A DNA stretch of 64,000 nucleotides from Eledone cirrhosa (taxonomy: Eukaryota). The translations under genes and the position numbers were made by a program. Below, one piece after another: positions 22,368 through 35,609 of the stretch; the stretch's first letter is position 1, and the number at the start of each line of letters is the position of its first letter. Where the stretch lies: the NCBI GenBank assembly GCA_964016885.1, contig OZ024740.1, forward strand, positions 361,894,001-361,958,000, in the 5' to 3' direction. Under the pieces are notes generated by a model that made no database searches, had not been told where the DNA came from, and was given only the letters and a program-made list of their open reading frames with translations.

Positions 22368-24619
22368 ATTATAAATTATTTCATCATGACTGGTGAATTG
22401 GTGGTATATGGCGTTGAAAGTATTTTCTGTGGGGCCTATATGAGATTTCGTGGTGTCGCCGGTAGAGAAATTTCCAACTACATAATTTGTTTAATTACAT
22501 CTCAAACGAATGTCCATCAAACAAATTACTCTGGTCATTTCAGTTATGTCCTTCTTTGTATGTGATAAAGTGGCGTTTGACTAGAGGTCTCTTCATGAAC
22601 AGAAATATAAGAGTACTTGTCTTCTGATGAACGGTTGATAAGCAATGAAACATGAAAAGTCAACCTGTTGTTTTTCCCATTTGGTTAAATTGCCACAGCG
22701 AAGCTTAAAACTGTACTTATACCTAAATTATATTTATAGTATATTTTTTTAATAAACGCCGGTTGCTGCATAAATATCAATTACCGCGCCAGCTGGATTC
22801 CAAGCATTAGTTGTTTCTAGATTCAGTTCATATTGTTGTTATGATGCTTATGACAGTCATCACTGGACAATAACAGTCGGTTATGGAATAGCTAATGGCA
22901 TATTTTACCCCATGATATAGGAGGACGGTGTGGTACGTTAATCTTTACTTGCTTCTTAGTGCAATTAAAGCGTGTGGCTGAGCATTAGGAAAGATTAAAA
23001 TGTTTTATTTTATTTCATTTATCTATCTATTCTAATTTCATTTACTTATTTATTTATTTCATTTTTTCCCCATTAAGGTAGTAAGATTGAGGTTAGTTTT
23101 GGCTGGTATTCTATCACCTTTATTCTATTTAATTTCCATGACTTTAATAGCGTTCCCGTTGGCCGCCGCTCTGATTTGAGTTTGGGTTGAAGGTGGGAGT
23201 GATACCTAAAAAAGTGACCAAAGCGGTTGGTGTCCTGGCCTTTGAAGTTTGGTATAAAGCTATAAGTGGTAGAATGGTGGTACGTGTCTCACCGAATGCT
23301 ATGTCTTTCCTCCCTTCCTCGTTTCTTTGGTTCTTTTTTTTTATTGGTTTATTCCTTATTCTTCAGGCTTGCCAGACCAAGCTAATTTTGATAAAATATG
23401 GCATAAAAATGATATTCCAGTAAGTTTGAATTTTATAAAATAATTTAGCAAATCTCCATTTGCTTATTTTATTCTTATTTGTGTATTTACATTTGTGTGT
23501 GTATATGCATATATGTGTGTTTGTTTAAAATGCGGTTTGAAGTATGTGATTAATTTTATATTGCTTTTGGACTTTGTATTTATGTAATATTCCTCCTTTA
23601 ACCATATTGTTTATTTCAATAATATTTTTTTCTTGTGTTGTATGGTCTATGATTTTTCTGATACAAACTTCCCTGTGCATGGCAGCACACGATTAGAACA
23701 TATTTTGTCTCGGTGGTAAGTTAAGGGAGTTATGGTTGAAATACGCAAGGAGAAGGTGAAGCACGGTATATTATGTAGTGTGGCTGTAGTCGCTGCATAT
23801 AATAATAGTTTTATTATATAGGAATTACATAATATGCAGTTTCATAACGTGTGTCTACCCCATTTGCTGGCTGTTGCGCGGTCCATGGTTGGTTTACGAA
23901 ATCGGGAATGCAGGTCAGACGCAGGTTTAAGGTGTTTTCTGAGTGTTTTGTTTACGGGTTAAGGCAATCGACGGTCCTGCTTATACAAACACACACACAC
24001 ATTGTGTGTATATATATATATATAATTCGGAATATAAAAAAAACAGACAACGCAGGAGTACATGTTACAAATAGTATTAGTTTCACGCTTAGTGAGAGTT
24101 GGGTTTGTGGGTGCAGCGTTTCGGACATCAGGAGAGTGGGGAGGGGGGACTCCGAGAAGGAGTGAGGGGAGGAGTTAGCGAGTAAAAGGAGATAAAGATA
24201 AAACATGAAGTGGAAAATAAACACACATACACACAAATACACACAGATACACACAGATACACACACATACACACAGATACACACATACACACACATACAC
24301 ACAAATACACACATACACACAAATACACACAGATCTTTGGGTGGTCGAACTCCTATATATACCTCAGACAAGAAGGATTGAGATTTATTTGTTCCGCACT
24401 TCAAATTTCACATCTAAAGTCTGGTTTAGCAATTTAATCTCCTTGAAGTCAATAAAACAATCATTAAGAACCATTTGAGATACAAAGCTAGAGTATACAG
24501 TTTACTAACTTATTATTCAGTACAAGATGTGTCTGTTATCCATAACACTTATCGGACTACTTATGCACGCGACAGTATATGTGTATGTATTCATATGGGC
24601 ACGCAGGTATCTATGATGG

Positions 24620-32680: not shown

Positions 32681-33039
32681 AAGCAAAGAAAATTTCAATG
32701 ATACGAAAGATTTCCTGGTGGAAGTTCAGGTGTACTCCAGGTTGGTATCCAGTTTCGGGGTGAAAATCTATTAGAAAATCCGTCAACATGAATGGACCTG
32801 TTATTTTTATCTAAAGACGTTTTTTTTCCAATTCCAACCCGCCCGTCCCCTAAATCTATCTTATTTCTCATTCTTTCTTCTGATGAAAGACTAGCGTCCA
32901 AAACAGCAAGACCCGCTTCCTGCTATATCAAACGTTAACCTAATATATCCCTTCCATATACTGTACCGATTGTGTTGTAATTTCTGTTTACCTTTACATA
33001 TATATATATATATATTAGAAATTGATTTTTTTTTTTTAC

Positions 33040-33827
33040 AAAATGAAAAGAAAAACGAGATGTCCTACATGAGTGAAAGTATAACGAAAAAAGATGAAAT
33101 CAAAAATGCAACTGGAGTCTTTTTAAGAATATTTATTTGGTTCCTTTACCGGTTTCGCAGTTCTTGTGTTTTTCAAAAGTAGAATTAAGCTGGAGGGTTT
33201 GTGGTTTTTCTCACATCTGGTTGGTGTTCGAATGTTACATCTGTTTTATATGGAAAAAAAGTGACTCGAAATGCTGGGTTTTTAGAAAAGTAATTTTGTT
33301 GGTTGATGACTGTCATGTGAATAAGTATAATAACTTTCGCGTCAGTTCGCGTTACAAACTTCTTATTATATTTGCCTTTAAAAAAAAAGGGGGGGGGGGG
33401 ATCAGATTGTTTTTTTCATATATGAGTGAAATTAGGTTGGTTGATGCAGTCACGTGAATAAGCGCATCAACTTTCGCGCCAGTTTGTGTTTGAGTTTCTT
33501 TTTACTTAAAAAAGTGGCTCAAAAAAGTTTTTTTTTTAATAAATGTAATTTGATTGGTTATAAATGAAATTATGACTGTCACGTGAACAACTACATTAAA
33601 TTTCGTGCCCGTATTTGGGAATTATTTTGGTAGCCATTTAGAGAATGTTGTGCCAAACAAAAGATAATGGTCAAGAAAAAAAGGATGGGGAGAATTGTTC
33701 TGGTTCAGCTGATGTGTCAAAATTCAGACTTTCTATTGAAATAAAGAAAGTAGAGATATGTATTTTTATTTGTGTGCTGGTGTGTGTGTAGGAAAATGAT
33801 TCTATTAGTAGAAATGGGGGAGGGAGT

Positions 33828-33893
<66 letters not shown>

Positions 33894-33956
33894 ATGTGTG
33901 TGTGTATATGTGTGTGTGGGAGTATAGTTGGCATGTTAAGATGGAGAGAATATATA

Positions 33957-33989
<33 letters not shown>

Positions 33990-34103
33990 GAAAATGATTT
34001 CGTTAGTAGAAATGGGAGAGAGAGTTATGTGTGTTTGGGGGGTATGGTTAGCATGTTAAGGTGTTAGAGTATTAACGTATGTTAAGGTTTATTTAGCTCT
34101 GTA
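33040..34103 (-). mobile_element. Non-coding Penelope-like element: promoter-like repeats upstream of an HHR-like motif
   Basis: HHR-like motif at 33143-33181 (-); three CCAAT/GTCACGTG/TTTCGCG modules at 33295-33610; shares motifs with 17790-18437 and 6475-6590. Confidence 0.55.
33295..33610 (-). promoter_or_regulatory. Three repeated CCAAT-like + E-box (GTCACGTG) + E2F-like (TTTCGCGCC) modules
   Basis: GTCACGTG at 33449 and 33578 (GTCATGTG at 33312); TTTCGCG at 33335 and 33472 (TTTCGTG at 33601); GATTGG at 33552. Confidence 0.45.
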
Positions 34104-34138
34104 TATTTAGTTATGTAATAAACAACATAAGACAATTA

Positions 34139-34211
34139 TTTCATTTACCAAAGGTTTCACGAAGACAGACGAGTTTGACACAGACGTCTGAAATTGTTCG
34201 TCAGAATGAAA
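34139..34211 (-). ncRNA. Type I hammerhead ribozyme (inverted copy)
   Basis: Exact reverse complement of 34242-34314. Confidence 0.85.
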
Positions 34212-34241
34212 ATTTATTTAAGACATCCGTTTTAAATAAAT

Positions 34242-34314
34242 TTTCATTCTGACGAACAATTTCAGACGTCTGTGTCAAACTCGTCTGTCTTCGTGAAACC
34301 TTTGGTAAATGAAA
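34242..34314 (+). ncRNA. Type I hammerhead ribozyme
   Basis: tttcatt-CTGACGA-AC...CAGACG/CGTCTG...GT-GAAA-CC(ttt)GG-TA-aatgaaa: 7-bp stem I, full core, GUA site at 34305-34307. Confidence 0.85.
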
Positions 34315-34432
34315 TAATTGTCTTATGTTGTTTATTACATAACTAAAAGCTCTGTAGCCTACAGAGAGCACTCTCCTTTGCTTTACCTTTCCTATGGAAA
34401 CACTTAATATATATATATATAAATATACACAC

Positions 34433-34490
<58 letters not shown>

Positions 34491-35609
34491 GTGTGTATGT
34501 GTATTATATCAATGCAGCAATTACTGAAAATATAAATTTTACCTATTGGTTGTTGCGCCAACGAGCAGTTGTGAAAAGCCAGTCGGCGAAGCTTGTATCG
34601 TAACTAACTCCATTTTTAACTTTGCCTTTTATCCTTGCGGAGTCGATAAAATAAAGTACCAGTAATACACTGGATAATTGCTGGCCTTGTGCCAAAAGTA
34701 GAAACAATTATTATAAAAAAATATAAATGATCTCGCTACTCCTTGTATAGAGGTCTGTTCTCAGATAATGTTTGTAATCTGTGAAATATATACCAGTATA
34801 TATTTTACAATAACTATATTATGATCTTTCACTATTCTCTGTCATTATACTGCAACTATGGTTGGTTTTTGTGTTTTGTTTGGTCACTATAATCGTTAGT
34901 GGTTGAAGGCGGGGGGCATTTCCCGATGAATAAGGAAACTGCTAGTTATATATATTTATTTCTTGTCATGAAATTCAGCGAAACCTTGTGACACATTTTA
35001 AATAACAAGAATATGCAAAATTTAAACTAATAGTGAGAGTAGTTTTTATGATGTAAATGTCTTTAGGTGTGGTAGACTTTGTAAGCGATGTGTATTTTGG
35101 AGAGATAGGGTGAATATGTAAATGTAGAGATGAACTGGAGAAAAAATGACCTGCACCACCTCATTCAACATCAACTGTCCAATGTGAGAGCAAATGGGGT
35201 GTCTGAATGTGTGTGATAGCATATATACACCTAGGTGTCGTCATAGTTATTTTCGTCCGAGTTAAGGTATAAAAAGTTTAACACTGGGATTGTTTCGCTA
35301 CACATATATATTGTTATACTTTAGTAGGTTCACATTGTCAATAAAAGCACAGCCACCGGTTGAGTTTCACTTCGGTTTTATTATTAGTCAGGCAACTAAT
35401 CCATCCCTCGGTTAGTTTAGTAGCCGGATGGATATTTAATTGTCAAAGCTCTTTCAGTAGACATTCTCTGACCTTATCACTAACTATTCTGGTCTTTCCG
35501 TGGCTTCTTTTCATTCTGATTTTATTTTAACTACCCCCATCCTTGGATAGGATGAAGTAAATAAAACAAAATCAAAACGAAACAATTTTAGTCTTGAAGT
35601 AATTTCTAC

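What the first reader, a model, noticed from the sequence alone, without database searches (positions are those of the whole stretch)
34095..34356. 242-bp palindrome with a canonical hammerhead on both strands and a 9-bp flanking duplication
Seen: 116-bp arms with no mismatch found; each arm is a full HHR (7-bp stem I, CUGACGA, GAAA, GUA); AGCTCTGTA flanks both sides. Inference: a very recent insertion. A transcript in either direction holds one ribozyme plus its antisense, so cleavage would compete with a long dsRNA hairpin (a possible ADAR/Dicer substrate).
Basis: partly seen in the sequence, partly recalled or inferred. Interest (0 to 1): 0.8.

Follow-up and report, generated by a model that had tools for sequence, protein, structure and literature searches.

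The report
Head-to-head Penelope retroelement end pair
The palindrome is real, but it is two back-to-back copies of the ribozyme-bearing end of a common Penelope-like jumping gene, the supposed target-site duplication is not one, and the ribozyme is predicted to be locked inactive in the hairpin.

Summary
The palindrome is confirmed: 116-bp perfect arms, a 10-nt spacer and a type I hammerhead core on each strand.

The arm is the pseudo-LTR (pLTR) of an abundant Penelope-like element (PLE). The same sequence flanks RT + GIY-YIG ORFs with Hydra-clade motifs. Head-to-head pairs recur: at least 9 of the 40 best-scoring loci.

The 9-bp 'duplication' is not a target-site duplication. The right copy starts the element's own optional 3' tail (20 of 25 other tailed arms). 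The left copy is the broken end of a different PLE plus TA.

The ribozyme is not fully canonical. A rare G>A change breaks helix II in both arms. In either direction the antisense arm is transcribed first, so the active fold is predicted not to form. Transcription could not be tested.

One lead: 10 of 48 copies, this one included, end at the same nucleotide, 6 with an extra G. This may be a copied RNA cap.

The scan noted the same structure in another genome (e1-9995956). This is a known PLE insertion form. Interest is low.

The parts
34106..34221 (-). Left arm: inverted pLTR copy of the Hydra-type PLE with a type I hammerhead (core 34204-34146), ending at the family's short 3' end
   Evidence: arm flanks RT/EN ORFs elsewhere
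34222..34231 (+). Centre. 34223-34231 is templated pLTR sequence (ACATCCGTT), with a 2-nt AC/GT overlap between the arms; G34222 matches neither arm's template and sits at a recurrent 5' end point
34232..34347 (+). Right arm: direct pLTR copy
34242..34314 (+). Type I hammerhead: helix I 34242-34248/34308-34314, CUGACGA 34249-34255, helix II 34256-34294 (pair 3 broken by A34258), GAAA 34295-34298, helix III ACC-UUU-GGU, predicted cleavage after A34307
34348..34407 (+). The element's optional 3' tail (about 60 nt); its first 9 nt are the right-hand 'TSD'
   Evidence: tail on 26 of 48 arm ends; exact AGCTCTGTA in 20 of 25 other tailed arms
34408..34490 (.). (TA)n target run grading into (CA)/(GA) microsatellite
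34102..34105 (.). TATA: remnant of the (TA)n target at the short end; supplies the last TA of the left 'TSD'
   Evidence: raw reads of the family leave the window before 34102 into (TA)n (537 and 489 reads)
33017..34101 (-). Neighbour: 5'-truncated 3' end of a different, Neptune-like PLE; its last 7 nt (34095-34101, AGCTCTG) supply most of the left 'TSD'

Best explanation
This is a short, protein-less insertion of a Penelope-like retrotransposon with Hydra-clade protein motifs: two copies of its hammerhead-bearing end repeat joined head to head in a TA microsatellite, likely made in one target-primed reverse-transcription event and predicted to be catalytically silent. Shown: the arm's identity as a pLTR, the two fixed 3' ends (short, and with a 60-nt tail), the (TA)n flanks, the 2-nt overlap at the centre, and the non-TSD nature of the 9-mer. 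Inferred: the element's RT/GIY-YIG protein, supplied from another copy, nicked (TA)n and copied an uncleaved sense RNA from its internal start sites back to the RNA's 5' end near ACATCC. The two arms were then joined through the AC/GT microhomology. I slightly favour two cDNAs primed from the two target strands, one from each start site (about 55%), because this explains why only one arm has the tail. Fold-back self-priming of a single cDNA is the alternative (about 40%). Any read-through RNA would zip into a 116-bp hairpin before the ribozyme is complete; only a transcript starting at the centre could free it, and this copy's helix II is damaged.
For: 1923 first-look candidates for the arm, 40 scored. 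The arm lies downstream and upstream, direct and inverted, of RT+EN frames in L057, L084, L088, L098, L102 and L103; L057, L084 and L088 carry this same subfamily (87-95% identity). RWK, DKT, CxCX5C, CxxC and CxH motifs are present in those frames, the Hydra diagnostics of PMC8557442 section 11. 9 of 10 palindromes with both ends visible have the tail on one arm only. Other pairs have different centres and 0-8 arm differences. Helix II is rewritten but still paired in three subfamilies around a constant core. Active-fold probability is 3e-4 for this arm alone, 6e-2 for L003 and about 1e-81 in the palindrome. Literature: inverted pLTRs, an optional tail and junction palindromes (PMC3846280); paired HHRs on opposite strands (PMC4209133); both strands nicked and extended, the tail bounded by two RT start sites, and HHR cleavage not needed for insertion in vitro (PMC11167929).
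Against: No intact autonomous copy of this exact subfamily was found: the frames examined are broken or 5'-truncated, and the nearest other arm+tail is 94.9% identical, so the source copy is unknown. Pfam gave no match for the Hydra-type ORFs (0 families for 3 ORFs), so the clade call rests on motifs, not on a tree. The tail (about 60 nt) is longer than the 30-40 bp described. The 7-nt match between the neighbour's break point and the tail start is unexplained; chance is roughly 1 in 1000 by my estimate. Two cDNAs and fold-back cannot be told apart from these junctions.
Confidence: 0.87

Rival explanations
1. A discrete, self-contained palindromic hammerhead element (retrozyme- or MITE-like) that moves as a 242-bp unit and made a 9-bp target-site duplication.
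For: Perfect arms and a 9-mer on both sides; two other loci share nearly the same centre (L012, L007). PLE insertions with 8-10 bp TSDs are described (PMC3846280).
Against: The right 9-mer is element tail and the left is another element's sequence plus TA. The left junction is unique in the genome (1 match each). The 8 strict-pattern palindromes have 8 different centres, so they arose independently. The arm belongs to RT-encoding elements.
Confidence: 0.04
2. A sequencing or assembly fold-back chimera.
For: The arms are identical and share two variants that are rare elsewhere; no contig laid spans the whole palindrome.
Against: Contigs matching the private-variant arm exactly have about twice the depth of the unique flank (21.8 vs 10.2/9.4 in X1; 22.6 vs 8.6 in X2). 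This is one sample, possibly the assembly's own, and the flanks could be haplotype-specific. The structure has the family's own asymmetric ends, and sister palindromes with 5-8 arm differences exist.
Confidence: 0.04
3. A host-exapted regulatory hairpin (dsRNA for ADAR or Dicer, or a ribozyme switch).
For: It would form a -196 kcal/mol hairpin if transcribed.
Against: No transcription evidence is available. None of the 16 window ORFs tested passes a Pfam cut-off (small exons not excluded). It sits in nested repeats and has many equivalent sister loci.
Confidence: 0.05

Closest known systems
Hydra clade of C-terminal EN+ Penelope-like elements (Craig et al. 2021, PMC8557442)
   Same: RT followed by GIY-YIG; RWK, DKT, CxCX5C, CxxC and CxH motifs; canonical-type HHR in the pLTR; insertion into (TA)n; inverted 5'-truncated copy; tail at one end.
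   Different: This locus keeps no ORF; the tail is about 60 nt, not 30-40; the EN-to-pLTR distance in relatives is about 1.5-5 kb, longer than the <3 kb elements described.
Penelope inverted-pLTR insertions in Adineta vaga (Arkhipova et al. 2013, PMC3846280)
   Same: Head-to-head pLTRs that overlap at the junction, junction palindromes, an optional tail on one arm.
   Different: There an ORF usually lies within the unit and 8-10 bp TSDs are visible; here it is pLTR only and any TSD is hidden in (TA)n.
PLE hammerheads (Cervera and de la Pena 2014, PMC4209133)
   Same: Type I HHR in the pLTR, dispersed truncated copies, pairs on opposite strands.
   Different: Here helix III has 3 bp with a non-palindromic loop, helix II is long and closed by A-U rather than G-C, and the pair is closer than the 100-700 bp reported.
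Non-LTR retrozymes (bioRxiv 10.64898/2026.07.22.740005)
   Same: Small non-coding type I HHR repeats related to pLTRs.
   Different: Retrozymes are head-to-tail tandem arrays; this is a head-to-head pair that cannot yield two ribozymes on one strand.

Membership tests
EN+ Penelope-like element | Sequence is the terminal repeat (pLTR) of an RT + C-terminal GIY-YIG ORF | tested here: met
   Arm found flanking RT/EN frames in direct and inverted orientation in L057, L084, L088, L098, L102, L103; YRDD and YVGMT motifs
EN+ Penelope-like element | Inverted 5'-truncated copy and optional tail on one end | tested here: met
   9 of 10 palindromes with both ends visible have a tail on one arm only
EN+ Penelope-like element | RT groups with PLE/telomerase RTs in a phylogeny | not tested
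   No named reference PLE proteins were at hand; the 120 listed homologues are unnamed
Hydra clade | RWK and DKT motifs | tested here: met
   RWK in L084 and L098; DKTKN in L084, L098 and L102, of 5 loci read
Hydra clade | CxCX5C linker; CxxC and CxH around the conserved E and N | tested here: met
   CxCX5C and CSLC in 4 of 5 loci, CPH in 3 of 5; CxCX5C in 116 of 120 homologues
Hydra clade | Insertion into (TA)n | tested here: met
   21 of 48 arm ends run directly into TA; tails end in TA; raw reads
Type I hammerhead ribozyme | Conserved core CUGANGA / GAAA / NUH with three helices | tested here: met
   Core intact here and in 36 of 46 arms; helix II sequence differs between subfamilies but stays paired
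Type I hammerhead ribozyme | Stable helix II next to the core in this copy | tested here: not met
   A34258 gives an A-C mismatch; predicted pairing of helix II 0.008; the core mispairs instead
Type I hammerhead ribozyme | Self-cleavage activity | not testable with these tools
   Needs in vitro transcription
Insertion with a target-site duplication | Both direct repeats derive from host target DNA | tested here: not met
   Right copy is element tail; left copy is neighbour PLE plus TA
Non-LTR retrozyme | Head-to-tail tandem HHR units | tested here: not met
   One HHR per strand, head to head

The most novel reading that the evidence does not exclude
These palindromes are 'strong-stop' products that record the cap of a sense PLE transcript. 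RT starts at the internal tail sites, runs to a fixed capped start (ACATCC, in an initiator-like TCACATC, 26 nt before the hammerhead core), copies the cap as an extra base, and the cDNA end then primes the second arm. 10 of 48 copies end at exactly this base, 9 of the 10 are inverted junctions, and 6 of the 10 carry a G there. If so, head-to-head PLE palindromes come from a sense, capped, uncleaved RNA rather than the antisense template proposed in PMC3846280, and the pLTR start site can be read from the genome.
Probability: 0.35. Interest if true: 0.5.

Novelty: new member of a known kind. Interest (0 to 1): 0.2.

Why it matters
As a locus it matters little: it is one of many dead PLE end-pairs in this genome. 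The family is a useful natural data set for how PLEs integrate, which is still unresolved. Many independent junctions share two fixed 3' ends and one 5' hot spot, which bears on whether the template is sense or antisense and on where the tail comes from. It also shows that an apparent TSD can be a coincidence of two nested elements.

Tried and rejected
Rfam gave no family at gathering score and only generic miRNA-hairpin models at E-value level; these are not evidence of a miRNA.

TSD reading: rejected.

A tail-to-tail junction elsewhere that could explain the left 9-mer: only the window itself matched. A multicopy chimera of the two PLEs: only the window matched.

Homogenisation of arms by gene conversion was considered because arms share rare variants. 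It is not needed: close pairs with 5-7 differences exist (L104, L112, L115), and pairs 5 kb apart also share variants.

An automated local-alignment test of G enrichment at the hot spot was not significant (4 of 7 vs 11 of 37, Fisher p = 0.21). It mis-extended several ends into AT-rich flanks and counted both arms of a pair, so a stricter rule was run. In 5 of the 6 G cases there the junction is inverted, and in 4 of these the G can be read as templated by the other arm.

Runs X5 and X9 (other organisms) laid nothing, which is no proof of absence. The RAD-seq runs did not cover the unique flank, so no empty allele could be sought.

Pfam did not recognise the Hydra-type ORFs. A literature search on a guessed host group found nothing relevant; the host was not identified. 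A search for Penelope-like + non-templated + cap + pLTR found 0 papers; most subscription papers are outside that library. No supplements were read; supplementary files S1/S2 of PMC8557442 may already list this family.

Full report
OBSERVATION. The stretch 34106-34347 is a 242-bp palindrome with exact 116-bp arms and a 10-nt centre. It folds at -195.8 kcal/mol, z = -34. A loose descriptor found three hammerhead-like strings in the window: the two arms (34249-34307 +, 34204-34146 -) and one at 22624-22661 that was not followed up. AGCTCTGTA stands at 34095-34103 and 34348-34356. Rfam has no match at gathering score.

THE ARM IS A HIGH-COPY REPEAT. In the 3.0-Gb genome the arm gave 1923 first-look candidates, of which 40 were scored. 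At least 9 of those loci, the window included, show a second match on the other strand within 200 bp, minus before plus, that is head to head. A strict centre pattern found 8 palindromes with 8 different centres, and a second pattern found 5, two of them new. Among short-gap head-to-head pairs the arms differ at 0/116 (window), 1/114, 2/91, 3/114, 8/112, 0/116, 0/67, 7/88, 0/55, 1/56, 6/114 and 5/112 positions. The family has therefore produced such palindromes repeatedly and at different times.

IT IS THE pLTR OF A PENELOPE-LIKE ELEMENT. In 28 longer stretches, the arm lies after the endonuclease end in the same orientation and before the RT in direct or inverted orientation, for example in L057, L084, L088, L098, L102 and L103. 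Some stretches showed no arm within range (L087, L090, L092, L096, L101). The frames carry YRDD, YVGMT, RWK, DKT, CxCX5C, CxxC and CxH (5 loci read). These are the diagnostics given for the Hydra clade, which also targets (TA)n and carries canonical HHRs (PMC8557442, section 11 read in full). Pfam did not recognise these ORFs. A homologue search gave 2558 proteins among 8000 scored, the 120 listed all without a useful name; 116 of the 120 have CxCX5C. No tree was built.

THE 9-BP 'DUPLICATION'. Of 48 arm ends, 26 continue into a fixed tail, 21 run straight into TA, and 1 does so after a few A's. The tail starts with AGCTCTGTA in 20 of 25 other tailed arms, so the right copy is element sequence. 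The left flank is another repeat (723 candidates). In the 19 other loci all 20 motif matches read TTAG(C/T)TCTG and go on with G(T/C)TTTTAT. That repeat belongs to an RT + GIY-YIG element (PF01541, E 9e-7) with a CX4CxxC linker, lying on the minus strand from about 33017 to 34101. Raw reads from two other samples break at the same point: 147 and 223 reads leave the window after 34101, and 537 and 489 reads enter it from (TA)n before 34102. The left copy is thus seven bases of the neighbour plus TA. The junction is unique in the genome. Why the neighbour breaks at a 7-mer that equals the tail start is unexplained; chance or a microhomology-guided join are both possible. Nine of 10 palindromes with both ends visible have the tail on one arm only, the pattern described for PLEs (PMC3846280 passages and Discussion; PMC8557442 passages).

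THE RIBOZYME. The family motif looks selected: the core is intact in 36 of 46 near-complete arms, and three subfamilies have unrelated helix II sequences that all pair (45 distinct intact-core sequences). This copy has A at 34258 where 41 of 46 arms have G, which breaks the third pair of helix II. The predicted probability of the hammerhead fold is 3e-4 for the isolated motif, against 6e-2 (L003), 1e-2 (L005), 3e-3 (L013), 3e-2 (L102) and 0.15 (L083); a seventh, mis-parsed copy (L093) is ignored. In the palindrome it is about 1e-81. The antisense arm is made first in both directions, and folding of growing transcripts shows the hairpin complete at each of 5 lengths tried. These are thermodynamic predictions without tertiary contacts or protein. 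Published metazoan PLE hammerheads cleave weakly or need the element's protein, and cleavage is not required for insertion in vitro (PMC4209133 parts 1-2 of 4; PMC11167929 parts 1-2 of 4).

REAL OR ARTEFACT. Contigs that match the private-variant arm without error have depth 21.8 and 22.6, against 8.6-10.2 for unique right-flank contigs. This fits two copies, with the caveats of one sample and possibly haplotype-specific flanks. No listed contig spans the palindrome. Diverged sister palindromes and the family-specific asymmetric ends also argue for a real structure.

AGE. Zero differences in 116 bp bounds arm divergence at 2.5%. The nearest other arm+tail held is 94.9% identical. It is young relative to several sisters; an absolute age was not estimated.

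MECHANISM. Inferred: target-primed reverse transcription into (TA)n on an uncleaved RNA, since both sides of the cleavage site are present. The centre shows a 2-nt overlap between the arms, and overlaps of 1-2 nt recur in L007, L012, L104, L115 and L022. PMC11167929 reports that a PLE protein nicks and extends both target strands and that the tail lies between two internal RT start sites. Two cDNAs, one from each site, joined at their 3' ends would give exactly this asymmetric palindrome. Fold-back of one cDNA gives the same centre.

THE 5' HOT SPOT. Four-base-unbiased patterns found 48 copies with an intact ACATCC. By a strict rule 10 end exactly there, 9 of them at inverted junctions; the preceding base is G in 6, T in 2 and A in 2 (binomial P 0.003 to 0.08 depending on the null). 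L120 also looks like a G case by eye but missed the rule. In the window the G matches neither arm's template. An untemplated 5' G is taken as a sign of cap copying for L1 (PMC9341517, passages). Against: the automated test was not significant, four of the six G's can be read as templated by the other arm, and an RT pause could make the same hot spot. The match of TCACATC to an initiator consensus is from recall.

CONTEXT. None of 16 window ORFs tested, out of 51 listed, passes a Pfam cut-off. No RNA run of this organism was offered, so transcription, editing and dicing remain untested. The bioRxiv retrozyme preprint was read in part 1 of 5 only. One earlier scan note from another genome reaches the same reading; it was seen after my reading was set and is not independent evidence.

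VERDICT. A real and tidy example of a known PLE insertion form, with the TSD claim refuted and the ribozyme predicted silent. New member of a known kind, interest 0.2.

Noticed in passing
window 33143-33180, minus strand: The neighbouring Neptune-like PLE carries its own minimal hammerhead with the U3-A8 core variant (UUGAAAA ... GAAA CCGG UA). The motif was seen 12 times in 11 of 19 related loci; helix II is damaged in the window's copy.
   Followed up: partly
window 34095-34101 and 34348-34354: The neighbour's truncation point falls on a 7-mer identical to the start of this element's tail; chance or microhomology, unresolved.
   Followed up: partly
window 22624-22661, plus strand: A third CUGAUGA...GAAAC string matched the loose hammerhead descriptor; its helices were not checked.
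   Followed up: no
window 34616-34717: Fragment of an extremely abundant short repeat (summed contig depth in the millions), probably a SINE; not identified.
   Followed up: no
L012/L013 (G000:C3:130987062-130987303): A sister palindrome with the same turning point, identical arms sharing five non-majority variants, and a tail on both arms; the only two-tailed case among 10.
   Followed up: partly
window 34352-34368: The tail begins with a small hairpin (CTCTGTAG-C-CTACAGAG), perfect in this copy and in L004; a candidate for the RT start-site structure.
   Followed up: no
L053:5565-7189 and L096:8337-9998: A further, more distant Hydra-like RT/EN family (about 35-45% identity to the main one in the RT), with an Asn-rich linker in L096.
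   Followed up: no
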